Positions 24,304 through 35,965 of a DNA stretch of 64,000 bases are shown one piece after another. The DNA is from Abditibacteriota bacterium (GTDB lineage Bacteria; Armatimonadota; UBA5829), in the NCBI GenBank assembly GCA_017445025.1, contig JAFSVJ010000090.1:156-64155 (forward strand). Reading direction: 5' to 3'. The stretch's first letter is position 1. Every line of letters starts with the position of its first letter. The notes under the pieces are model-generated. The model saw nothing but the letters and a program-made list of their open reading frames with translations. It searched no databases and was not told where the DNA came from. A program made the translations under genes and the position numbers.

Positions 24304-26064
24304 ATGAAGAAACTTTTTATGCTCATGGTAGCTGTAATCCTTATGGCTGCCCCTGCATTCTCACAGAATGCATTTTCAGACGTTCCTCGTGACCACTGGG
24401 CATACGGTGCTGTCAGTCAATTGGCTGCTGCCGGTATCCTTGAAGGTTATCCCGACGGAACTTTCCAAGGTAAGAGAACCCTTACCAGATACGAATATGC
24501 TATGATTATAGCAAGACTTCTTCCTTTCTTAAGCGACGAAGACATTAATGTTTCCGCTTTTGCCACAAAGAAAGACTTAGACGGCTATGCAAAACTTAGC
24601 GACATCAAAGGTGCTGATTTATCAGGTGTAGCATCAAAGGCTGATCTTGACGCTATTGCAAAACTCGCCAACGAATTCAAAGCAGAACTTGCTGCATTAG
24701 GTGTAGACGTTAACGCTCTTAACGCTGACCTCGCCGCTTTAAGAAGCAGAGTTTCTGCTCTTGAAGACGAGCAAGCAAGAGTTAAGATTACAGGAGAATT
24801 AACTCTCGCAGGTATGTATACCACTACCAAAGACGGTGACTATTTATTGGATTATGACAGAGCGGCGGAAAGAGAAGGATCCCAAGGAACACAATTTATG
24901 AAGGATTTCCAAATCAACGTTAAAGGTAGAGTTAACAGCAATATTAACGCTTACTTAACCCTTGTTGCCGGAGACTACATGAGAAAAAAACAGGAAGGTT
25001 TTGGGGCATGGAAAACCGATGTAAGTCAGTCTGTAGATTCCACTGTTCTCCCTTACTACATGTATGCAACTGTTGACGCAGGAAAGTATGGGGATTTCAA
25101 AATAGGTAGAATGCCTATGCAAATAAATAAATATATCTATTTGAGAGCTGATGCAGATTCCTACATAGATATTGAAAGAACCGATAATGGTGACTACCAA
25201 TTTGGTGGAGTAGATTATAACAAATCTTTCGGTGCTTTTGACATTCGTGCTTGGTTTGGTCAACCTACTCACTCACTGTTTTATGATACCAATATGGAAT
25301 CTGCTTATAATCTTCAAACTCCCATTAAGGATATGGCAGGTATTCAATTGGGCTTTAACATTTCCGAAGCAAGAATCGAAGCTTTGATAAACTACAACGA
25401 AGCTTTTAATGATTTTGAAGGTTGTATTCCTTCTTATGTGACAGGTCTTTCTAAATCTGTTGTATATGGTGGAACTGTAGCAATTCCTTTCGGAAGCTTT
25501 GCTCTTGATGGCGGATACTTTGTTCAAAAGACAAAGAATTTGGACACTGTTTACGGTTACGGTAAGGACAATCCTCATATTGCCGATGCCAATATTTCAT
25601 TTGAAAGCAATGGTTTAACCCTTGGTGTGGGATACTTGGACGTAGAAGCCGGATATAATGCACCCGGTGACTACGAAGGAATGGCTTATGTGGGCAACCC
25701 GGATAATATTAAAGGTTTCAAAGCCAACGCCGCTTACGATTTTGGCAACTTCAATATCTTCGGTGAATACAAACAATACAAAACCAAAGATGACAAATAT
25801 GTTAGCAAATATGAATATGATCTAACCAATGATAAAATAAAGTTTTTATGTGCCGGTATTAATTATAACGCCGGAAATATAGGTGAATTCGGCGCAAAGT
25901 ATGAATCTCTTGACAACCACGGAGATAAATCAAATTATATTACAGTCTCTTGGCTTAAGAATATAGGTAATGCCAATTTCAAAATCGCTTATCAAAATAT
26001 TAATAATAAAGAACTTGAAAACAAGGGTAGCATTATCTACGGTCAAGCAGGATATACATTTTAA
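24304..26064 (+). CDS. Outer-membrane porin with an N-terminal SLH domain, a coiled-coil linker and a C-terminal beta-barrel (OmpM/Som-like)
   Basis: It has a signal peptide, the SLH motif FSDVPRDHWAYGAVSQLAAAGILEGYPDGTFQG and a heptad-rich linker. An alternating-hydrophobic C-terminal region ends ...GQAGYTF. Confidence 0.85.
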   Translation: MKKLFMLMVAVILMAAPAFSQNAFSDVPRDHWAYGAVSQLAAAGILEGYPDGTFQGKRTLTRYEYAMIIARLLPFLSDEDINVSAFATKKDLDGYAKLSDIKGADLSGVASKADLDAIAKLANEFKAELAALGVDVNALNADLAALRSRVSALEDEQARVKITGELTLAGMYTTTKDGDYLLDYDRAAEREGSQGTQFMKDFQINVKGRVNSNINAYLTLVAGDYMRKKQEGFGAWKTDVSQSVDSTVLPYYMYATVDAGKYGDFKIGRMPMQINKYIYLRADADSYIDIERTDNGDYQFGGVDYNKSFGAFDIRAWFGQPTHSLFYDTNMESAYNLQTPIKDMAGIQLGFNISEARIEALINYNEAFNDFEGCIPSYVTGLSKSVVYGGTVAIPFGSFALDGGYFVQKTKNLDTVYGYGKDNPHIADANISFESNGLTLGVGYLDVEAGYNAPGDYEGMAYVGNPDNIKGFKANAAYDFGNFNIFGEYKQYKTKDDKYVSKYEYDLTNDKIKFLCAGINYNAGNIGEFGAKYESLDNHGDKSNYITVSWLKNIGNANFKIAYQNINNKELENKGSIIYGQAGYTF

Positions 26065-26346: not shown

Positions 26347-28107
26347 ATGAAGAAAATTCTTATGCTCATGGTAGCCGTAATCGTTATGGCTGCTCCTGCA
26401 TTCTCACAGAATGCATTTTCCGACGTTCCTCGTGACCACTGGGCATACGGTGCTGTTAGCCAATTAGCTGCTGCCGGTATTCTCGAAGGTTATCCCGACG
26501 GAACATTCCAAGGTAAGAGAACTCTTACCAGATACGAATATGCTATGATCATAGCAAGACTTCTTCCTTTCTTAAGCGACGAAGACATTAATGTTTCCGC
26601 TTTCGCTACAAAGAAAGACTTAGACGGCTATGCAAAACTTAGCGACATCAAAGGTGGCGACTTATCAGGTGTAGCATCAAAGGCTGATCTTGACGCTATT
26701 GCAAAACTCGCCAACGAATTCAAAGCAGAACTTGCTGCATTAGGTGTAGACGTTAACGCTCTTAACGCTGACGTAAACGCTTTAAGAAGCAGAGTTGCCG
26801 CTCTTGAAGACGAGCAAGCAAGAGTTAAGATTACCGGTGAATTAACTGTTGCCGGTAAATACACCATGTCAAAACATGATGACTACTTAGTAGACATTGA
26901 TGACAATCCTTTCAACAGAGACGGTTCTCAAGGAACTGAACTTATTAAGGATTTCCAAATCAACGTTAAGGGTAGAGTTAACAACAATATTAACGCTTAC
27001 TTAACATTGGTTGCCGGTGACTACATGAGAAAGAACATCAGTCCTAAAGAACCAGTTTGGAAAACTGATGTAAGTGAATCTGTAGACTCTACAGTTCTTC
27101 CTTACTACATGTATGCAACAGTTGATTGTGGTAAATACGGTGACTTCACAATTGGTAGACTTCCAATGCAAATCAACAAGTATGTCTACAAGAAATATGA
27201 TGTAGATTCATATGTTGACATAGCAAGAATGGACAATGGTGACTACCAATTCGGTGGTATTGACTACAACAAGAGCTTTGGTGCTGTTGATGTAAGAGCT
27301 TGGTTTGGTCAACCAACCCACAGCGAATACTTTGACATTACTGATTACCAAGCTTACGGTTTAATGACTCCTGTAAAGGACATGGCCGGTTTACAATTAG
27401 GTTTCAACATTGCCGGTGCAAGACTTGAAGCTTTAATGAACTACAACGAAGCTTTCAACGATTTTGAAGGTTGTATTCCTTCCTACGTAACAGGTCTTTC
27501 AAAGTCTGTTATCTATGGTGGAACTTTAGCTGTTCCTATGGGTAGTGTAGCATTAGATGCTGCTTACTTCCAACAAAAGACAAAGAACCTTGATTACTAC
27601 ATGTTCAACGAAAAGGACAAAGCTAACTTGTTAGACGCTAACTTAACATTTAACTGGAATGGTTTAACTGTTAAGGGTGGATACCTTGATGTTCAAGCCG
27701 GTTACGCAGCTCCTGCTGACTACGAACACATGGCTTACGTTCACAACCCTGACAACATCAAAGGTTTCAAAGCTTTCGCAGCTTACGACTTTGGTAACTT
27801 TGACCTCTTTGGAACATACAAGCAATACAAGCAAAAAGATGACAAGTTCTACAAGGGTGACTACGAATACAAAGACAAGATTAAATACTGGAATGCCGGT
27901 TTGAACTACAACTTCGGTAACTTCGGTAAAATCGGTGCAAAATACGAAGAGATTGACAACTACGGTGACAAGTCCAACTACATTACTGTTTCTTGGTTAA
28001 AGAACATTGGAAACGCAAACTTCAAACTTTCTTACCAAGCAATCAACAACAAGGGACTTGACAACAAGGGTAGCATCATCTACGGTCAAGCAGGTTACAC
28101 ATTCTAA
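26347..28107 (+). CDS. SLH-domain outer-membrane porin, tandem paralog
   Basis: Same length (586 aa) and architecture as 24304..26064. The N-terminal ~165 aa are almost identical. The barrel is diverged and rich in C-ending Asn/Tyr/Phe/Ile codons. Confidence 0.85.
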   Translation: MKKILMLMVAVIVMAAPAFSQNAFSDVPRDHWAYGAVSQLAAAGILEGYPDGTFQGKRTLTRYEYAMIIARLLPFLSDEDINVSAFATKKDLDGYAKLSDIKGGDLSGVASKADLDAIAKLANEFKAELAALGVDVNALNADVNALRSRVAALEDEQARVKITGELTVAGKYTMSKHDDYLVDIDDNPFNRDGSQGTELIKDFQINVKGRVNNNINAYLTLVAGDYMRKNISPKEPVWKTDVSESVDSTVLPYYMYATVDCGKYGDFTIGRLPMQINKYVYKKYDVDSYVDIARMDNGDYQFGGIDYNKSFGAVDVRAWFGQPTHSEYFDITDYQAYGLMTPVKDMAGLQLGFNIAGARLEALMNYNEAFNDFEGCIPSYVTGLSKSVIYGGTLAVPMGSVALDAAYFQQKTKNLDYYMFNEKDKANLLDANLTFNWNGLTVKGGYLDVQAGYAAPADYEHMAYVHNPDNIKGFKAFAAYDFGNFDLFGTYKQYKQKDDKFYKGDYEYKDKIKYWNAGLNYNFGNFGKIGAKYEEIDNYGDKSNYITVSWLKNIGNANFKLSYQAINNKGLDNKGSIIYGQAGYTF

Positions 28108-28373: not shown

Positions 28374-28403
28374 TTGACAAGAATTGTGTAAATGTGGTAT
28401 AAT
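28374..28403 (+). promoter_or_regulatory. tRNA-Ala promoter (TTGACA-18-TGgTATAAT)
   Basis: Exact -35 and extended -10, ending 14 nt before the mature tRNA 5' end. Confidence 0.65.
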
Positions 28404-28416
28404 ATAAATTGGTTAT

Positions 28417-28492
28417 GGGGATATAGCTCAGCTGGGAGAGCGCCACACTGGCAGTGTGGAAGTCAGGGGTTCGAGTCCCCTTATCTCCACCA
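28417..28492 (+). tRNA. tRNA-Ala (anticodon GGC), CCA encoded
   Basis: A 76-nt cloverleaf folded by hand. The acceptor stem is GGGGATA/TATCTCC with a G3:U70 pair. The D-loop is AGCTCAGCTGGGAGAGC, the anticodon loop is CT-GGC-AG, and the T-arm is GGGGTTCGAGTCCCC with a 3' ACCA. Confidence 0.93.
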
Positions 28493-28496
28493 CACA

Positions 28497-28519
28497 AACC
28501 GGTTTAAGCCGGTTTTTTT
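28497..28519 (+). terminator. Rho-independent terminator after tRNA-Ala
   Basis: AACCGG-tttaag-CCGGTT followed by a T-run. Confidence 0.65.
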
Positions 28520-28536
28520 ATTATATAGAGAATATT

Positions 28537-29490
28537 ATGAAAGAAGTATTAAAAAACAAATTAATCTATTTTATATTGGCAGCTTTTTTCTTGTGGTATG
28601 TATTCCCTTATATTCCTGTTGATAAGGCTATAAAAGCAATACCAAAGGATTTTGCCTGTCACAATCTTTCTGTCACTATTATTCTTATATCTTGTATTAT
28701 TGTTTCCACTGTCCTAAATATGTTTGTTCAATTTGGGTTGGTATATCAGCTGGCACGTCTGAAACTTAACTGGAAAAAGCTCCTCTTAGGTCTTTTTTTA
28801 TCCCTTGTTTGCCTGATTTTATGTATAGTTTGGATTGAGCATTATTTAATAATTCATAAACCTGAGATTTTTCCTCCCAATACTAATTACATTACTCACC
28901 TTTTGGCGATAGGTAAGAATATAGGTTCAAGAATGATTTCCGCCCTTCCTCAAAGGGGATTTATTAATTTCTTTATAATTCTCTTGTGTTTTAACTTTGG
29001 TTCACTCCTTTCTTATATAGTTAAGGAAAAGAATCTTCTTGTGCCTGTAATGTTGTGTTGTGCTTTTATAGATATATGGACCTGCACTGTGGGTTTTGTA
29101 AACAAAACTTTGGCAAAAGCCCCTGAGGTGGTAAGCGGTGTCAGCACAGGTGTCAGTATGATGGGTGGCTCTAAAATTATGGGAGCCAATATAGCCACCA
29201 TAGGACCCGGGGATTTTATTTTTGCTGCATTGGTTTTTGCTGTTGTTATGAGATTTAATATGGAAAAGGGTAGAACTTTTTGGGTTATGTTTGGGTTCCT
29301 CACTTTGGGAATGCTTCTTATTGTATTGGGAATATTGCCTTTCTTGCCCGCATTGGTTTGTGTGGCACTGGGAACACTTATTGCCAATTATAAAAAGTTT
29401 AATCTTTCCAAACAAGAAAAGATTAGTGTTCTGGTAGTATTTTTGGTGCTCTTGGGCTTACTCATTTTCTTTAAATTTTTTAAACAATGA
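28537..29490 (+). CDS. Polytopic membrane protein with presenilin/signal-peptide-peptidase-like (family A22, GxGD) motifs
   Basis: The ATG at 28537 avoids the tRNA overlap of the longer ORF. About 9-10 TM segments are present. AFIDIW (Asp codon 29071..29073), IGPGDFIF (29203..29214) and LPAL (29344..29355) occur in the YD / GxGD / PAL order and spacing. The stop overlaps the mrdA ATG (ATGA). Confidence 0.5.
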   Translation: MKEVLKNKLIYFILAAFFLWYVFPYIPVDKAIKAIPKDFACHNLSVTIILISCIIVSTVLNMFVQFGLVYQLARLKLNWKKLLLGLFLSLVCLILCIVWIEHYLIIHKPEIFPPNTNYITHLLAIGKNIGSRMISALPQRGFINFFIILLCFNFGSLLSYIVKEKNLLVPVMLCCAFIDIWTCTVGFVNKTLAKAPEVVSGVSTGVSMMGGSKIMGANIATIGPGDFIFAALVFAVVMRFNMEKGRTFWVMFGFLTLGMLLIVLGILPFLPALVCVALGTLIANYKKFNLSKQEKISVLVVFLVLLGLLIFFKFFKQ

Positions 29491-31247
29491 ATATAGAAAG
29501 AGTTCAGAAAAACAGAATAATTGCTTTTATGGTTATAGTCATAGTCTTGTTTTTGGCTTTGGCGGGAAGGCTTTATTATCTTCAAATAATCAAAGGAGCC
29601 GAATATAATCAAAAGGCAATTAATAACAGAATAAAGCTGGTGAAAACTCCCGCACCAAGGGGTCCCATTATTGACAGAAACGGTATTGCTTTGGCAGATA
29701 ATGTGAAAGCTTATGTGGTGGACGTGATTCCGGATGAAATGGAAAAGGAACCGGCGGCTCTGGAACTTTTGTGTGACATACTTAATATGAACGCAAAGGT
29801 TTATTATGATATAATTAAGGAAACCAAACCGCGTCCCGGCTATCCCGTGAGAATAGCTACAAATGTGACCTTAGACCAGATTATAAAAATAGGGGAAAAC
29901 AGGCATATTCTCAAAGGGGTTTCCGTAGATAACACTTATGTCAGGTCCTATCCTCTCAAAAATAAAGCATGCCATATTACAGGTTATACAAGAGAGATTT
30001 CCAAAGAAGCCCTTGAAGAAGCTCGTGAAAAGGGACTTAAATACAGACCCGGAGATAACATAGGTGTGGCAGGTCTTGAAAAGTATTACGAACAGGAACT
30101 GAGGGGGGTTGACGGTGGAAAAAGGCTTATGGTCAATGCTCAAGGTCAAGTTGTTAAAGTTTTGAAAGATATGCCTTCAGAGCAGGGAAAGACTTTAAAA
30201 TTATCCTTGGATACTAACTTGCAGTCCGTGGCAATGTCAGCTTTGAGCGGAAAGGTTGGAGCAACCGTCGCAATTGACCCAAATAACGGCGAAATTTTGG
30301 CAATGGTGTCCAATCCGACCTTTGACCCAAATATGTTCACGGAAGGGCTAAAAGCCTCAGATTGGCGAAAATTGAGCCAAAATCGGGGGCATCCTTTGCA
30401 GAACCGTTTCATAGGATCCTATTATCCTCCCGGCTCAGTTTTTAAACCTATAATTGGTATCAGTTGTTTGGAGAATGGGGTTTCTCAAACTTCCACTTAT
30501 GCCTATTGTCCCGGATATATTCGTTTGGGAGGATATAAGAAAGGGTGTTGGGCAGCCCATGGTGGAGTGGATTTTTACAGAGCTATTTCCATGAGTTGCG
30601 ATACATGGTTTTATAAACAGTCTATGAAATTGGGAATAGAAAGATTATATAAAACCGCCACAGAGTTTGGTTTAGGGCAACCTACGGGAATTGATTTACC
30701 GGAAGAAGTTATACGAAACGAAAAGGCCGGTAATTTCCCAAGTAAAGAGTGGCACAAAAAGGTTCATAAGAGAGAATGGGTTATCGGTGATACCTTGAAT
30801 GTGAGTATAGGTCAAGGTGATGTCCTTGTAAGCCCTCTTCAAATGGCTGTGGCAATAAGTGCTGTTGCCAATGGTGGGACAGTTTATAAACCTCATTTGC
30901 TTAAAGAGATTATAGACCCCAAAACAGGACAAGTGACCAAAAATGAAATAGTTGTAAACAGCAGAGTTGAAGCAAAGGATGAAAATTTTAAAATAATGCG
31001 AAGTGCTATGGAAGGTTGTGTCCGAGGGGGAACGGGACGGCCTTGTGCTATAAGCGGTGTGCGAGTGGGAGGAAAAACCGGGTCTGCGGAAGCAACCGGT
31101 GGTAAGGCTCACGGTTGGTTTGTGGCCTTTGCTCCTGTGGATAACCCCAAAATAGTGGTGGCAACCATAGTAGAACATGGTGGAAGCGGATCCGGAGCCG
31201 CAGCCCCTGTCTGCAGAGCTATGATAAAACAGTATTTGGGAAAGTAA
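29487..31247 (+). CDS. mrdA: Penicillin-binding protein 2 (elongasome transpeptidase)
   Basis: 586 aa with an N-terminal TM anchor, GRLYYLQI, SxxK (GSVFKP) and KTG (GGKTGSAE). Confidence 0.9.
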   Translation: MNIERVQKNRIIAFMVIVIVLFLALAGRLYYLQIIKGAEYNQKAINNRIKLVKTPAPRGPIIDRNGIALADNVKAYVVDVIPDEMEKEPAALELLCDILNMNAKVYYDIIKETKPRPGYPVRIATNVTLDQIIKIGENRHILKGVSVDNTYVRSYPLKNKACHITGYTREISKEALEEAREKGLKYRPGDNIGVAGLEKYYEQELRGVDGGKRLMVNAQGQVVKVLKDMPSEQGKTLKLSLDTNLQSVAMSALSGKVGATVAIDPNNGEILAMVSNPTFDPNMFTEGLKASDWRKLSQNRGHPLQNRFIGSYYPPGSVFKPIIGISCLENGVSQTSTYAYCPGYIRLGGYKKGCWAAHGGVDFYRAISMSCDTWFYKQSMKLGIERLYKTATEFGLGQPTGIDLPEEVIRNEKAGNFPSKEWHKKVHKREWVIGDTLNVSIGQGDVLVSPLQMAVAISAVANGGTVYKPHLLKEIIDPKTGQVTKNEIVVNSRVEAKDENFKIMRSAMEGCVRGGTGRPCAISGVRVGGKTGSAEATGGKAHGWFVAFAPVDNPKIVVATIVEHGGSGSGAAAPVCRAMIKQYLGK

Positions 31248-31248
31248 A

Positions 31249-31588
31249 GCACAATGCACAATGCAAAATGAAAAATGCAAAGTTAAATGCAGAATGCAAA
31301 ATAATTGTGGGGCTTCGCCCCATTTTGATTGGTGGATTCTAAACTTTGTAGTCGCCCTATGAAAATCGCACGCCACCTTTTCCCCATAAAATTCCGTGAA
31401 TTTTGGGGATATGTCAGGCGAAGCCTGACAGGGGGGCATCTCACTAATGCTCATTGTCGCTCTATACAATTAAGACGCCACCATTCCCCCCTTTTTAAGG
31501 GGGGACAAAGGGGGGTATATTATTCATTCTGCATTTTATTATGCATTTTGCATTTTGCATTTTTTATTTAAATTTGCAACGCAAATTT
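31249..31588. repeat. Mosaic hairpin-repeat element with AATGCAA-type heptad termini
   Basis: The left array is GCACAATGCACAATGCAAAATGAAAAATGCAAAG..GCAGAATGCAAAAT followed by the hairpin GTGGGGC-ttc-GCCCCA. The interior has TGTCAGGCgaaGCCTGACA and CCCCCCtttttaaGGGGGG. The right array CATTCTGCATTTTATTATGCATTTTGCATTTTGCAT is the inverse of the left. Confidence 0.75.
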
Positions 31589-33034: not shown

Positions 33035-34783
33035 ATGAAAAAATATATTTTAGTTATACTATTATTGAGTTTGAGTATTTTGGCTTTTGGCGAAAGTTTT
33101 CCGGGAGAAATTGTAAACGGGGAGTTGACTTCTTATAGTTTTAATTCTTCTAAGATAGATTTGTTTAAGATTGGCGTAGATATTATTTCTATAGGACCTA
33201 AGGCATTAAGTAATAAAAAGTGTAAAGAAATTTCGTTACCTTTTACTGCTGTTTATTTTAAAGAATATTGTTTAAGTGATTGTCCGAACTTAAAATATGT
33301 TTTTTTTCCCGCTTTAACACAATATATAGATGATACGGCTTTTTATAATAACAGATTAGAAAAATTTGGAATAATGAAAATGATTGCTTATAAGGATCCG
33401 GATTTAATTAGATTTGGATATTTTTATATAGGTTGGAAGTTAGGATTAATATCAGAACTTGAATTTAATAATGAAATGTTAAACCGAGATAATAATGATA
33501 GATTAAAAGAAGTTGGAATTACTCCTCTTGATACTAATTTAGGTAAATATAATCAATTGACCAATCAGATTTTGGTTAAATATACTGTTATTGATGATGT
33601 ATTATATACTGTTTTTGAAGACAAATTAGTTTGTTATCCTGCTTGTAAAAAAGATAATAAGTATGAAATATCAAAGAAAACAAAAGAATTGGGAAAAGTA
33701 GCTTTTGCAAATTGTCAATATTTAGAAGAGTTGATAATTCCAATAGGTGTGACCAAAATTTATGATACAACTTTTGAGGGATGTGAGAATGTGAAATTTA
33801 TCGTTGTTAAGAATTCAGTTGCACATAAATATTGCGAAAGTCACAATTTAAATTTTGAAACAATAGATGGTGGCTCTCAAGATTTAGATCAAAGTGACAA
33901 TGCAAAAGATGATGCTATAGATAATCAAGAGAAAAAAACAAATGATATTAATGAATTAAAAGATACCGAAAAAGAAACAACCGAAGAGCCGGTAAAAGAA
34001 GCTAAAACTATAAAAACTGAGAGTAAATCAAATAATACCTCCGGTCCTTCTTGTCCAGATAATCCTTTTTATGATAATCTTCATTCTTTTATAGATAAAG
34101 AAGGGAATGAAATATCAAAAGACAGGATACTCTTGGAAAATAATTTTATTGAAGATAGTGGTTGGCTGAAAGATTTAGATGAAGATAATGTTGATGAGAA
34201 TAATTATGATCGTATATATACAGTATTAAACTCATTGGTTCAAAAAAATGCAATAAAGAATAAGAAAATAACTGATCTATGGACCGGACCAAAATGTTCC
34301 TTTGATGCATTAAGTGTTGTGGGCAACAAAAATTTAAAATATATAAAAATTGATCCGAATGTTGAAGATATTGATGAAGATGCTTTTCAAGACAATCCAA
34401 ATATAGAACTGTTTCATGTTTGTGTTGTAATGAATAAGGTTAATACAAAAAACAAAAATGTTCTTACAAAAAAATATATTGATATTGATGGTGTTTTATT
34501 TAAGAAAGATGAAAGTAAAATTCAAAAGAGTGGTCAATATCTCTTATTTTACCCGGTTGCAAAAAAAGATGAGTCTTATGTTGTTCCGGATAATACTGAA
34601 AGAATTTGTAATTCCGCCTTTAGAGATGCGAAAAATCTAAAAACTGTTACAATACCAAAATCTGTGACAGAAATAGGAAATAATGCTTTTCACGGAACAA
34701 AAATAACTTTAATTGTGACTAAAAACTCTTATGGAGAAAAATTTGCTAAAAGCAAAAAAATGAAATTTGAATATGCAAAATAA
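33035..34783 (+). CDS. Secreted BspA-type leucine-rich-repeat (LRR_5) protein
   Basis: It has a signal peptide, repeats of the type IP.gVt.I...aF..C.nL..v, and a central acidic/Lys-rich linker. Confidence 0.8.
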   Translation: MKKYILVILLLSLSILAFGESFPGEIVNGELTSYSFNSSKIDLFKIGVDIISIGPKALSNKKCKEISLPFTAVYFKEYCLSDCPNLKYVFFPALTQYIDDTAFYNNRLEKFGIMKMIAYKDPDLIRFGYFYIGWKLGLISELEFNNEMLNRDNNDRLKEVGITPLDTNLGKYNQLTNQILVKYTVIDDVLYTVFEDKLVCYPACKKDNKYEISKKTKELGKVAFANCQYLEELIIPIGVTKIYDTTFEGCENVKFIVVKNSVAHKYCESHNLNFETIDGGSQDLDQSDNAKDDAIDNQEKKTNDINELKDTEKETTEEPVKEAKTIKTESKSNNTSGPSCPDNPFYDNLHSFIDKEGNEISKDRILLENNFIEDSGWLKDLDEDNVDENNYDRIYTVLNSLVQKNAIKNKKITDLWTGPKCSFDALSVVGNKNLKYIKIDPNVEDIDEDAFQDNPNIELFHVCVVMNKVNTKNKNVLTKKYIDIDGVLFKKDESKIQKSGQYLLFYPVAKKDESYVVPDNTERICNSAFRDAKNLKTVTIPKSVTEIGNNAFHGTKITLIVTKNSYGEKFAKSKKMKFEYAK

Positions 34784-34801
34784 AAAGGAAGGTGATTCTT
34801 C

Positions 34802-35965
34802 ATGTTTAAAAATATAGTTAAAATTAGTTTATTATTAATTGCTTTGTTATATAGTTCTGTTGTATTTTCTTATGACAGCGAAAACTTCTTTGTTGATATT
34901 ACGCCGAGGGATCTTATAGATTTTTGTTTGGACGGAAAAATAAATCCTGCAATTCTTGATGATTCTCAATTATTAACTATTATTTCTTATGATAGAAAAG
35001 CTTTTGCTCAAATGCTTATAAAGGATGCTTATAAAAATTATCCAAATAGGTATATAAATAAGTATGGAGCATTGGTAATGCAAATAGATGAACAAAATGC
35101 TAATGAAGAGGCACAATTACGTTATAATGCTTTGTATAATAAGACTTGTCTTGTTAATAATCTTTATCGAAAGATACATTTTTTAATTAATCACGACGAT
35201 AAAATCGTTCAAGATGATGAGGATACTATTTTTGCGGAATGGGAAGTCCTTGAAAATGGAATAATTATTGATTATAAGGAAGACCAAAAAACTTTGGGAT
35301 ATGGTTGGAAAAAAATATATGCGACCCTCAATAATCCTATAAAAGAAGGTGCAATAAAGAATACACATATTACACATTTATTAACAGAGGCTAATTGTGA
35401 ATTTGATACTGAAAGTGTTGTTAATAATAAAGATTTAAAATTTGTATTAATACAGAGTGAAATTACTAATATAGATGAAGATGCTTTTAGAGATAATCCT
35501 AATATTTTAGTGTATCATGTTTGTGGTGCTAAGTATTATAGTAATGTTCATAAATATGATTTAAACTATATAGAAGGAAGACAATTAAGTTGCGTTGATG
35601 ATACTGTATCTCCGGCTGGTATCTTGGTCAAAAGTGCAATGAGAAAAAGTTTGTTTTATTATTTAAAACCTTATGCTAAATATTATGATATTAACGGAGT
35701 TTTATTTACTAAAAACGGTTTACAATTATTATTTTATCCAATAGGGAAGAAAGATCAATCATATAAGGTTCCCGATGGTGTGACTAATATTGGTAATTCT
35801 GCTTTTAGAAGTGCCAAGAATTTAAAAACCGTCACTGTTCCGGCTTCCGTTAAAAGTATAGGTGACGAAGCCTTTTTTGGAACAAATTTAACTTTATTTG
35901 TTAAAAAAGGTTCTTATGCAGAAACCTTTGCTAAAGAACATAAAATAAAAATTAAAAACTATTAA
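34802..35965 (+). CDS. Secreted BspA-type LRR protein, tandem paralog
   Basis: The C-terminal ~200 aa are collinear with the upstream gene (..NIDEDAFRDNPNI..LLFYPIGKKDQSYKVPDGVTNIGNSAFRSAKNLKTVTVP..). Confidence 0.75.
   Translation: MFKNIVKISLLLIALLYSSVVFSYDSENFFVDITPRDLIDFCLDGKINPAILDDSQLLTIISYDRKAFAQMLIKDAYKNYPNRYINKYGALVMQIDEQNANEEAQLRYNALYNKTCLVNNLYRKIHFLINHDDKIVQDDEDTIFAEWEVLENGIIIDYKEDQKTLGYGWKKIYATLNNPIKEGAIKNTHITHLLTEANCEFDTESVVNNKDLKFVLIQSEITNIDEDAFRDNPNILVYHVCGAKYYSNVHKYDLNYIEGRQLSCVDDTVSPAGILVKSAMRKSLFYYLKPYAKYYDINGVLFTKNGLQLLFYPIGKKDQSYKVPDGVTNIGNSAFRSAKNLKTVTVPASVKSIGDEAFFGTNLTLFVKKGSYAETFAKEHKIKIKNY

What the first reader, a model, noticed from the sequence alone, without database searches (positions are those of the whole stretch)
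28537..29490. Presenilin/signal-peptide-peptidase-like GxGD membrane protein translationally coupled to PBP2
The 317-aa protein has about nine to ten TM segments. It carries the three hallmark motifs of family A22 intramembrane aspartyl proteases in the right order. These are an Asp in a TM helix (CCAFIDIWTCTVGF, Asp179), GxGD at the start of the next TM but one (ATIGPGDFIFAALVFAVVMRFN, Asp226) and PAL at the start of a later TM (LPFLPALVCV, 271-273). The local context also resembles eukaryotic SPP as I remember it: ..YD.FWVFGT...VAKS.EAP.. and ..LG.GD..IPG.F.A.LLRFD. A22 homologs are typical of eukaryotes and archaea, and bacterial examples are scarce and uncharacterised. Its stop overlaps the mrdA start (ATGA), the position usually occupied by mreD in mreBCD-mrdA-rodA clusters. 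This suggests a link between intramembrane proteolysis and the cell-elongation machinery.
Basis: partly seen in the sequence, partly recalled or inferred. Interest (0 to 1): 0.7.

Follow-up and report, generated by a model that had tools for sequence, protein, structure and literature searches.

The report
Bacterial presenilin/SPP-like membrane protease beside PBP2
The gene encodes an unnamed bacterial membrane protein that is very probably a distant relative of the presenilin/signal-peptide-peptidase proteases, which cut other proteins inside the membrane, and in its own lineage it always sits directly in front of a cell-wall-building enzyme, PBP2.

Summary
The ORF at 28537-29490 encodes a 317-aa protein with nine long helices, and its stop overlaps the PBP2 start (ATGA).

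No curated Pfam, NCBIfam or PDB-sequence model detects the protein. It belongs to an unnamed family of 616 cluster representatives, seen so far in Armatimonadota and Abditibacteriota MAGs. Both Asp and the first Gly are invariant in 127 diverse members, and P-[AG]-L is about 90% conserved.

Several independent tests point to family A22:
- A profile of the family aligns to a merged SPP+SPPL2a+PSH+presenilin profile at hhalign 82.6%, E=1e-5. Both catalytic Asp are in register. The known PSH-SPP pair scores about the same; reversed controls give E~0.5.
- A confident AlphaFold model (pLDDT 93) finds only presenilin-1 chains as its top 13 Foldseek hits, though TM-scores are low.
- Loop charges predict the SPP orientation, which cuts type II anchors.

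The "mreD slot" idea fails. A tRNA-Ala and porin genes lie upstream, and no mreBCD or rodA gene was found in the ORFs checked. The PBP2 pairing is real (6 of 6 loci) but limited to the close clade. Other members sit beside amidase, NlpC/P60 or ANTAR two-component genes.

Verdict: a new bacterial variant of GxGD intramembrane aspartyl proteases, with substrate unknown.

The parts
28374..28403 (+). Sigma-70 consensus promoter (TTGACA-18-TATAAT, 12/12, TG extension). It is the only promoter-like site that can drive the tRNA and, by read-through, the target-PBP2 pair.
28417..28492 (+). tRNA-Ala (GGC), directly upstream of the target gene
28496..28523 (+). Terminator-like hairpin (8 bp stem) plus T-run. 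It ends 14 nt before the target ATG, so the target must be transcribed by read-through (inferred).
28537..29490 (+). Target ORF: a 317-aa protein with nine long helices, a presenilin/SPP-like GxGD protein
29071..29073 (+). Codon of Asp179, the proposed first catalytic Asp. It lies five residues before the periplasmic end of helix 165-184 and is invariant in 127/127 members.
29203..29214 (+). G223-P-G225-D226 (GxGD) at the start of helix 224-239. G223 and D226 are invariant. It aligns to GLGD of SPP and presenilin.
29347..29355 (+). P271-A272-L273 (PAL) immediately before helix 272-283. The family consensus is P-[AG]-L.
29386..29418 (+). Family-specific cytoplasmic linker from N284 to E294 (N 126/127, E 127/127). 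It leads into an extra C-terminal helix (292-316) that has no counterpart in A22 proteases.
29487..29490 (+). ATGA overlap of the target stop codon with the PBP2 start codon
29487..31247 (+). Class B penicillin-binding protein (PBP2-type) with an N-terminal type II membrane anchor (residues ~11-27)
31307..31323 (.). Bidirectional terminator-like hairpin that closes the two-gene unit

Best explanation
The gene encodes a founding member of an undescribed bacterial family, found so far in Armatimonadota and Abditibacteriota, that belongs to the presenilin / signal-peptide-peptidase superfamily of GxGD intramembrane aspartyl proteases.

Inferred mechanism. Asp179 lies near the periplasmic end of TM5 and Asp226 at the periplasmic start of TM6. 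Together they form a membrane-embedded aspartyl dyad that hydrolyses a transmembrane helix docked laterally into the protein. The P-[AG]-L turn before TM8 supports the active site, as it does in presenilin and SPP.

The loop joining the two catalytic helices is predicted to be periplasmic. This is the SPP orientation, opposite to presenilin, so the expected substrates are N-in/C-out (type II) segments: signal peptides or signal anchors.

In the window's clade the gene is co-transcribed and start/stop-coupled with PBP2, a type II-anchored transpeptidase. In other clades it is fused into operons with amidase, a beta-lactamase-fold PBP-like protein or NlpC/P60 genes. The most likely role is therefore processing or turnover of membrane anchors or signal peptides of peptidoglycan enzymes, with the PBP2 anchor as the prime candidate. 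This would be analogous to SPPL3 releasing type II Golgi glycosyltransferases.

Shown: the ORF, the motifs and their conservation, the remote homology, the fold hits and the gene neighbourhoods.
Inferred: catalytic activity, membrane orientation and substrate.
For: Family and motifs:
- The family has 616 representatives at E<=1e-3.
- D179, G223 and D226 are invariant in 127 members, and P-[AG]-L is about 90% conserved.

Remote homology to A22:
- hhalign of the family profile against a merged A22 profile (vertebrate SPP, SPPL2a, archaeal PSH, PS1 core; motif columns checked) gives Prob 82.6%, E=9.6e-6 over 91 columns. D179 aligns to the YD Asp, D226 to the GLGD Asp, and R239-F240-N241 to RFD.
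- The positive control, PSH against SPP, gives 85% and 5.9e-6 in the same setting.
- Reversed profiles give E~0.5 and unrelated membrane proteins give E~0.2.
- The PDB-wide hmmsearch top hit is the PS1 C-terminal fragment, with GxGD and PAL in register, at E=0.048.
- A22B and Presenilin are the Pfam families most often hit by members, all below threshold.

Structure:
- The AlphaFold model has pLDDT 93.3 and pTM 0.90.
- The Foldseek top 13 hits are all presenilin-1 (best E=5.9e-3, prob 1.00). Inhibitor- and substrate-bound states rank first.
- Element order is the same as in A22: Asp-TM, short helices with a beta bridge, GxGD-TM, TM, PAL-TM.
- Motif spacing is D-47-D-45-P, against 46 and 52 in human SPP (read from the sequences).

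Orientation: K+R counts per loop across the family give the SPP orientation.

Neighbourhoods:
- PBP2 lies immediately downstream in 6 of 6 close-clade loci, with gaps of -4 to +22 nt.
- Amidase_3 follows PBP2 in L002, L024 and L025.
- A Beta-lactamase2/S11-like gene plus Amidase_3 lie directly upstream in L017; L018 carries the same neighbour gene clusters.
- NlpC/P60 lies downstream in L007 and L028, overlapping by 8 nt in L028.

Literature:
- SPP has a topology opposite to presenilin and cleaves type II proteins (PMC2947513).
- SPPL3 releases the ectodomains of type II glycan-modifying enzymes (PMC9722940, PMC8918473).
Against: - No curated model recognises the protein: Pfam, NCBIfam and PDB phmmer give nothing.
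- hhalign against single subfamilies is weak: PSH E=0.12, SPP 0.0015, PS1 0.0046.
- Most of the hhalign score comes from the GxGD helix alone (block-shuffle control).
- Foldseek E-values are only 6e-3 to 0.5, TM-scores are 0.3-0.4 and rmsd is about 21 A. PSH itself is not among the listed top-50 fold hits.
- The residue before Asp179 is V/I/A/F, not Tyr.
- The architecture differs from A22: four TMs rather than five precede the catalytic pair, and there is an extra C-terminal TM with an invariant Glu294.
- I could not read the model coordinates, so the juxtaposition of the two Asp is unverified.
- The PBP2 link is absent outside the close clade. Most other members sit next to an ANTAR/GAF two-component system.
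- The L028 NlpC/P60 neighbour has no signal peptide or anchor, so not every neighbour can be a substrate.
- No activity or substrate data exist.
Confidence: 0.72

Rival explanations
1. It is the same superfamily and an active protease, but a housekeeping signal-peptide peptidase. It clears signal peptides left in the membrane after signal peptidase, as eukaryotic SPP does. The adjacency to PBP2 and other cell-wall genes reflects co-expression of envelope-biogenesis genes, not a specific substrate relationship.
For: - The predicted orientation is SPP-like, and the closest subfamily by hhalign is SPP.
- Neighbours vary between clades: PBP2, amidases with classical signal peptides, a cytoplasmic-looking NlpC/P60, and an ANTAR two-component system. 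No single neighbour is universal.
Against: - The target-PBP2 pair stays intact with tight coupling in six loci whose other flanks differ. That argues for a specific functional tie in this clade.
- A housekeeping enzyme would be expected to be spread more widely than the lineages seen here. All 19 genome hits are annotated Armatimonadota/Armatimonadetes or carry no phylum name.
Confidence: 0.3
2. It has a presenilin-like fold but does not work as a protease. It would be a membrane scaffold or regulator that binds the PBP2 transmembrane anchor in the former substrate groove, filling an MreD/RodZ-like accessory role in the elongation machinery.
For: - The gene is translationally coupled to PBP2, and no rodA, mreC or mreD gene is adjacent.
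- The invariant N284 and E294 and the extra C-terminal TM have no counterpart in A22 proteases. This hints at an added function on the cytoplasmic face.
Against: - Both Asp and the GxGD glycine are strictly invariant in 127 divergent members, including those with no PBP2 neighbour. That is the signature of retained catalysis.
- There is no Pfam MreD hit and no fold hit to MreD, RodZ or SEDS proteins.
Confidence: 0.1
3. It is an unrelated polytopic membrane protein, for example a transporter or a lipid-linked-intermediate enzyme. The D / GxGD / PAL-like motifs would have arisen by convergence, and the weak profile and fold matches would reflect generic helical-bundle similarity.
For: - Every single line of homology evidence is marginal: best Pfam E is 0.0017 in relatives, PDB hmmsearch 0.048, Foldseek 6e-3 with TM-score below 0.4.
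- Much of the hhalign score comes from one helix.
Against: - Four independent searches, of Pfam (24,736 models), PDB sequences (177,635), PDB structures (350,542 chains) and a targeted hhalign, all put A22 proteins on top.
- The alignment is co-linear through both Asp and reaches PAL within one residue.
- The GxGD-x12-RF spacing is identical to SPP.
- Reversed-profile controls fail.
- Transporters (AmtB, MurJ, ABC) appear only at Foldseek prob <=0.15.
Confidence: 0.07

Closest known systems
Signal peptide peptidase / SPP-like proteases (MEROPS A22B, Pfam PF04258; human HM13, SPPL2a, SPPL3)
   Same: - It is a polytopic protein with about nine TMs. An Asp lies near the exoplasmic end of one TM and GxGD at the start of the next.
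- R-F-(D/N) follows the GxGD Asp at +13 to +15, exactly as in SPP.
- A P-A-L turn precedes the TM two helices later.
- Motif spacing is similar: 47 and 45 residues against 46 and 52.
- The predicted orientation has the catalytic loop on the exoplasmic side, as in SPP.
- SPP is the best single-subfamily hhalign match.
   Different: - It does not pass the PF04258 model.
- There is no Tyr before the first Asp.
- The N-terminus is cytoplasmic, with four rather than five TMs before the catalytic pair.
- It has an extra C-terminal TM with invariant N284 and E294.
- It is bacterial and is encoded in operons with peptidoglycan enzymes.
Presenilin-1 (MEROPS A22A, PF01080), catalytic subunit of gamma-secretase
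   Same: - All 13 top Foldseek hits are presenilin-1, and the top PDB sequence hit is its C-terminal fragment.
- G-x-G-D-F-I-F is identical to PS1 GLGDFIF apart from the x position.
- The predicted short helices and beta bridge before GxGD resemble TM6a and beta2 of substrate-bound PS1. This comparison rests on my own knowledge of those structures.
   Different: - The predicted membrane orientation is opposite.
- There is no long cytosolic loop or endoproteolysis site.
- No partner subunits are known.
- Global TM-score is only 0.3-0.4.
Archaeal presenilin homologue PSH / MCMJR1 (PF06550; PDB 4HYC/4HYG)
   Same: - It is a prokaryotic, stand-alone protein of about 300 aa with roughly nine TMs.
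- hhalign aligns both Asp exactly: D179 with D162 and D226 with D220.
   Different: - That alignment is statistically insignificant on its own (E=0.12).
- PSH does not appear among the listed top-50 fold hits.
- The NCBIfam scan, which should include a PSH model (PSH is an NCBI product name), gives no relevant hit.
Type IV prepilin / preflagellin peptidases (MEROPS A24; PilD, FlaK), the known bacterial GxGD proteases
   Same: They are bacterial, have a GxGD second Asp motif, and are membrane-embedded aspartyl proteases. One homologue (L028) even has a pilin-like gene just upstream.
   Different: - A24 enzymes lack the PAL motif, and their active site faces the cytoplasm (own knowledge).
- A24 is not among the 25 listed Pfam families most often matched by the 127 members.
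- No FlaK structure appears among the listed top-50 fold hits.

Membership tests
A22 presenilin/SPP/PSH GxGD intramembrane aspartyl proteases | Polytopic membrane protein with about nine transmembrane helices | tested here: met
   The AlphaFold models show nine long helices: 8-21/25, 42-73, 79-107, 139-161, 165-184, 224-239, 244-263, 272-283 and 292-316. Hydropathy segments agree.
A22 presenilin/SPP/PSH GxGD intramembrane aspartyl proteases | First catalytic Asp inside a TM helix (the YD motif) | tested here: met
   Asp179 lies in helix 165-184, is invariant in 127/127 members, and aligns to the YD Asp of SPP and PSH. The preceding Tyr is not conserved: it is V/I/A/F.
A22 presenilin/SPP/PSH GxGD intramembrane aspartyl proteases | GxGD at the start of the adjacent TM helix | tested here: met
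   G223 and D226 are 127/127, and G225 is G in 100 and A in 27 members. Helix 224-239 is the next membrane helix. The motif aligns to GLGD of PS1 and SPP.
A22 presenilin/SPP/PSH GxGD intramembrane aspartyl proteases | PAL motif before the last catalytic-core TM, C-terminal to GxGD | tested here: met
   P271 is 112/127, position 272 is A in 74 and G in 43, and L273 is 119/127. The motif lies directly before helix 272-283. It is in register with PS1 PAL in the hmmsearch alignment and within one residue in hhalign.
A22 presenilin/SPP/PSH GxGD intramembrane aspartyl proteases | Passes a curated family model (PF04258, PF01080, PF06550, NCBIfam PSH) | tested here: not met
   The window protein has no Pfam hit at E<=10 and no relevant NCBIfam hit. 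Among 127 relatives there are only sub-threshold hits: A22B in 4 members (best E 0.0017) and Presenilin in 3 (0.024).
A22 presenilin/SPP/PSH GxGD intramembrane aspartyl proteases | Profile-profile homology to bona fide members | tested here: met
   hhalign against the merged A22 profile gives 82.6% and E=9.6e-6 over 91 columns, with both Asp aligned. This is comparable to the PSH-SPP control (85%, 5.9e-6). Reversed controls give E~0.5.
A22 presenilin/SPP/PSH GxGD intramembrane aspartyl proteases | Same three-dimensional fold | tested here: inconclusive
   The Foldseek top 13 hits are all presenilin-1 (E from 5.9e-3, prob up to 1.00). However, TM-scores are 0.3-0.4, rmsd is about 21 A, and no hit has E<=1e-3.
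A22 presenilin/SPP/PSH GxGD intramembrane aspartyl proteases | The two Asp side chains are apposed within the membrane plane | not testable with these tools
Indirectly, Asp179 is 5 residues from the end of its helix and Asp226 is 2 residues from the start of the next, both on the periplasmic side.
A22 presenilin/SPP/PSH GxGD intramembrane aspartyl proteases | Asp-dependent intramembrane proteolysis | not testable with these tools
   This needs biochemistry.
SPP-type (A22B) orientation | The loop between the two catalytic TMs is exoplasmic (type II substrates) | tested here: met
   This rests on the positive-inside rule across 127 members. K+R-rich loops are at 74-78, 162-164, 240-243 and 284-291. 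Loops 26-41, 108-138 and 264-271 are K+R-poor, and loop 185-223 has a low K+R density for its length. It is a prediction, not an experiment.
Type IV prepilin peptidase (A24) | Match to the Peptidase_A24 model or the FlaK fold; no PAL motif | tested here: not met
   A24 is not among the 25 listed Pfam families most often matched by members. No FlaK appears among the listed top-50 fold hits. A PAL motif is present.
MreD (PF04093) | MreD profile match and a position after mreB-mreC | tested here: not met
   There is no Pfam hit. A tRNA-Ala and SLH-porin genes lie upstream, and no mreBC gene was found among the window ORFs checked.
SEDS glycosyltransferases (RodA/FtsW, PF01098) | SEDS profile or fold match, as the usual PBP2 partner | tested here: not met
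   There is no Pfam hit, and no RodA or FtsW structure appears among the listed top 50 Foldseek hits.

The most novel reading that the evidence does not exclude
This is a bacterial SPP-type intramembrane aspartyl protease dedicated to the cell-wall elongation machinery. It would cut the type II membrane anchor of its operon partner PBP2, and in other clades those of other peptidoglycan enzymes, to release, inactivate or turn over the enzyme. That would be regulated intramembrane proteolysis of peptidoglycan synthesis by a presenilin relative, the bacterial counterpart of SPPL3 shedding Golgi glycosyltransferases.
Probability: 0.2. Interest if true: 0.8.

Novelty: new variant of a known kind. 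Interest (0 to 1): 0.6.

Why it matters
In the papers I found, presenilin/SPP-type proteases are described only from eukaryotes and archaea. The only bacterial GxGD proteases discussed there are the unrelated-looking prepilin peptidases (PMC2947513, PMC4343526). I found no paper on a bacterial presenilin- or SPP-like enzyme.

A sizeable bacterial family that keeps the Asp / GxGD / PAL core would matter in three ways:
- It extends the superfamily into Bacteria and bears on where it originated.
- It offers small, stand-alone enzymes of about 300 aa as structural and mechanistic models with the SPP orientation.
- Its tight operon link with PBP2, amidases and NlpC/P60 gives a concrete, testable candidate for intramembrane proteolytic control of peptidoglycan enzymes.

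It also shows that curated HMM libraries miss this family entirely.

Tried and rejected
Searches that found nothing relevant:
- Single-sequence Pfam, NCBIfam and PDB phmmer searches.
- A PDB hmmsearch with the 18-sequence profile, which returned only spurious ribonucleotide-reductase hits.
- hhalign of the family against single PS1, HM13 or PSH sequences. These gave only the GxGD helix or nothing. A single sequence is too weak a template here: even PS1 does not find SPPL2a or PSH by phmmer.

Searches of limited use:
- The HM13 homologue search returned only vertebrate sequences. The profile needed PSH, SPPL2a and PS1 to become informative.
- The search for related loci with the 127-sequence alignment failed for lack of a conserved stretch. 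It was rerun with the 18-sequence alignment.

Interpretations rejected:
- MreD, and RodA/SEDS as a missing PBP2 partner (see the membership table).
- MurJ or transporter-like folds, which reach only Foldseek prob <=0.15.
- An A24 prepilin peptidase.
- The GTG start at 28456, which overlaps the tRNA gene.
- All neighbours being substrates, because the L028 NlpC/P60 has no signal peptide or anchor.

Other dead ends:
- mreB, mreC, mreD and rodA were not found among ten candidate ORFs in the window. Not every ORF was scanned.
- The C-terminal extensions of long-form homologues have no Pfam match.
- Literature searches found no description of this family.
Full report
**1. The observation**

The ORF is real. 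It runs from ATG at 28537 to TGA at 29488-29490 on the + strand and encodes 317 aa. The mechanical ORF list extends it to a GTG at 28456. That extension runs through a tRNA-Ala(GGC) gene at 28417-28492, and the N-termini of all homologues align to the ATG.

The stop overlaps the start of the next ORF as ATGA (29487-29490). That ORF (29487-31247) is a class B penicillin-binding protein, with PBP_dimer at 2e-43 and Transpeptidase at 1.6e-60. It has an N-terminal type II membrane anchor.

Asp179, G223-P-G-D226 and P271-A-L273 are at the stated residues.

**2. The family**

Single-sequence searches against Pfam, NCBIfam and PDB sequences find nothing. A word-indexed search finds 17 homologues, none with a Pfam domain or a name.

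An exhaustive profile search finds 616 cluster representatives at E<=1e-3 and 403 at E<=1e-10. The conserved core is residues ~135-308.

In an alignment of 127 representatives, down to about 22% identity, the invariant residues are G155, D179, G223, D226 and E294. Other conservation:

| Position | Conservation (of 127) |
|---|---|
| G225 | G 100, A 27 |
| P271 | 112 |
| 272 | A 74, G 43 |
| L273 | 119 |
| R239 | R 105, K 13 |
| N284 | 126 |

Named members are 'hypothetical protein'. One comes from an Abditibacteriota MAG. All 19 hits in the GTDB species set are MAGs, eleven labelled Armatimonadota/Armatimonadetes and the rest without a phylum name, at 28-41% best-segment identity.

**3. Is it an A22-type protease? 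Sequence evidence**

- Scanning the 127 members against Pfam gives no hit above threshold. The two families hit by the most members are Peptidase_A22B (4 members, best E 0.0017) and Presenilin (3 members, 0.024).
- hmmsearch of the family profile against all PDB sequences puts the presenilin-1 C-terminal fragment (2kr6) on top at E=0.048. GxGD and PAL are in register in one alignment.
- For profile-profile tests I needed bona fide A22 sequences. My recalled human PS1 and M. marisnigri PSH sequences proved identical to PDB 5a63_B (467/467) and 4hyc_A (301/301). My recalled HM13 scores 330 bits on PF04258. Real homologues were then retrieved: P0166-P0285 for SPP and P0286-P0405 for PSH. The SPPL2a core was read.
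- Against single subfamilies the family profile is weak: SPP E=0.0015, PS1 0.0046, PSH 0.12. The PSH alignment nevertheless pairs D179 with D162 and D226 with D220.
- I then built a merged A22 alignment and checked that the YD and GxGD columns of SPP, SPPL2a, PSH and PS1 coincide; the PAL columns coincide for SPP, SPPL2a and PS1, and the PSH equivalent lies seven columns away. Against it, hhalign gives Prob 82.6% and E=9.6e-6 over 91 columns, query 167-259 to HM13 204-298. D179 aligns to the YD Asp, D226 to the GLGD Asp, and R239-F-N to R-F-D.
- Known homologues PSH and SPP score 85.4% and 5.9e-6 in the same setting.
- Controls: reversed profiles score 12-14 (E~0.5), and unrelated membrane proteins from the window score 16-17. 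Block-shuffling shows that the GxGD helix alone contributes a score of 35-40. The co-linear extension to D179 adds the rest.

**4. Structure evidence**

With the 127-sequence alignment, AlphaFold2 gives pLDDT 93.3 and pTM 0.90.

The order of elements is:
- four N-terminal TMs;
- helix 165-184 carrying D179;
- short helices 187-194 and 196-202, and a small beta bridge at 204-205 / 221-222;
- helix 224-239 starting with GPGD;
- helix 244-263;
- PAL followed by helix 272-283;
- an extra helix 292-316.

The two Asp are therefore on adjacent membrane helices, as A22 requires, not 'next but one'.

Foldseek against the PDB returns presenilin-1 chains as the 13 best hits. The best is 6lr4_B at E=5.9e-3 and prob 1.00. 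Inhibitor- and substrate-bound states rank above apo states. The first unrelated hit, AmtB, has prob 0.11. The earlier, poorer model also hit SPPL2a.

Caveats: TM-scores are only 0.3-0.4, no hit reaches E<=1e-3, PSH is not listed, and I could not read coordinates to measure the Asp-Asp distance.

**5. Orientation**

Mean K+R counts per loop across the family mark loops 74-78, 162-164, 240-243 and 284-291 as cytoplasmic. Loops 26-41, 108-138 and 264-271, and by alternation 185-223, are periplasmic.

The loop between the two catalytic helices is therefore exoplasmic. This is the SPP arrangement, opposite to presenilin. In eukaryotes it goes with cleavage of type II (N-in) segments (PMC2947513). 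This is a prediction only.

**6. Genomic context**

Upstream of the gene lie, in order:
- a 12/12 sigma-70 consensus promoter (28374-28403);
- the tRNA-Ala gene;
- a terminator-like hairpin with T-run (28496-28523) that ends 14 nt before the ATG.

Further upstream are two tandem SLH-porin paralogues. Downstream of PBP2 are a bidirectional terminator (31307-31323) and a convergent GntR-family gene. No mreB, mreC, mreD or rodA gene was found next to the pair or among ten further candidate ORFs in the window. The 'mreD position' reading is not supported.

The pairing with PBP2 is nevertheless conserved. PBP2 follows immediately, with a gap of -4 to +22 nt, in the window, L001, L002, L024, L025 and L026. 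These homologues are 36-53% identical to the window protein (alignment figures), and their other flanks differ. In L002, L024 and L025 one or two Amidase_3 genes follow PBP2.

Outside this clade PBP2 is not within 8 kb. What is found instead:
- At least 13 loci have a divergently transcribed ANTAR response regulator plus a GAF/HWE histidine kinase.
- L017 has a beta-lactamase-fold/S11-like protein and an Amidase_3 directly upstream, and L018 carries the same two neighbour clusters. The PBP-like gene cluster also precedes the target in L010 and L019.
- L007 and L028 have an NlpC/P60-SH3 gene immediately downstream, overlapping by 8 nt in L028.

Peptidoglycan enzymes thus recur as neighbours in three different arrangements. 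No single partner is universal, and the L028 NlpC/P60 lacks a signal sequence.

**7. Interpretation**

The best-supported reading is a new, strongly divergent bacterial family within the presenilin/SPP GxGD superfamily, with catalysis retained and an SPP-like orientation.

The substrate is unknown. The operon data make the anchors or signal peptides of peptidoglycan enzymes the leading candidates, above all the type II anchor of PBP2. The closest functional analogy is SPPL3, which cleaves full-length type II Golgi glycan-modifying enzymes and releases their catalytic domains (PMC9722940, PMC8918473).

Rivals are a housekeeping signal-peptide peptidase, a non-catalytic PBP2 accessory protein, and convergence.

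Differences from A22:
- no Tyr before the first Asp;
- one fewer N-terminal TM, with an N-in start;
- an extra C-terminal TM preceded by invariant N284 and E294;
- some members carry a soluble C-terminal extension of about 190 aa.

**8. Novelty and score**

I found no literature on bacterial presenilin/SPP-like proteases or on this family. The reviews I read list GxGD proteases as eukaryotic SPP and presenilin, archaeal PSH, and the A24 prepilin/preflagellin peptidases (PMC2947513, PMC4343526).

I rate it a new variant of a known kind, with interest 0.6. The homology is well supported, and the family is sizeable but missed by curated libraries. The PBP2 link is testable. However, activity and substrate are entirely inferred, and the family is confined to little-studied lineages.

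Noticed in passing
window 24304-26064 and 26347-28107 (+): Two tandem paralogues, 79% identical over 586 aa. The one scanned (26347-28107) has an N-terminal SLH domain and a porin-like C-terminus (OmpM-type outer-membrane anchors). They lie directly upstream of the tRNA/target unit.
   Followed up: partly
window 28374-28523 (+): A perfect 12/12 sigma-70 promoter with TG extension drives tRNA-Ala(GGC). The tRNA's terminator-like hairpin ends 14 nt before the target ATG. The target-PBP2 pair therefore seems to depend on terminator read-through or tRNA-mRNA co-transcription.
   Followed up: partly
L003, L004, L006, L009, L011, L016, L027: spacer upstream of the target homologue: A conserved element, GTG(G/A/C)TATAAT-N3-5-TGTCAAA(A/G), lies between the divergent ANTAR response-regulator gene and the target homologue. 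It looks like an extended -10 box abutting a TTGACA on the opposite strand. The ANTAR/GAF two-component system is the commonest neighbour of the family outside the PBP2 clade.
   Followed up: partly
L028 5618-5950 and 6878-7678: A type IV pilin-like protein (N_methyl; leader MDNLNSRKG/YTLLEVMIVV) lies 50 nt upstream of a target homologue. An NlpC/P60-SH3 gene without a signal peptide overlaps that homologue's stop by 8 nt. The pilin adjacency is a single case and may be chance.
   Followed up: no
P0073, P0129 and about ten other representatives (516-558 aa): Long-form family members carry a soluble C-terminal extension of about 190 aa after the last TM. It has no Pfam match. In these the PAL motif reads PGL.
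   Followed up: partly
L003 4276-6141; L027 6965-8775: In some Armatimonadota loci the gene downstream of the target homologue is a large GHMP-kinase-like protein. It is 621 aa in L003 and split into 458 + 143 aa in L027. Its function is unknown.
   Followed up: no
window 33035-35965 (+): Two adjacent ORFs with related C-terminal sequences; the first (33035-34783) has BspA-type leucine-rich repeats. The window is AT-rich (34.9% GC) and corresponds to nearly a whole 64,277-bp NCBI contig.
   Followed up: no
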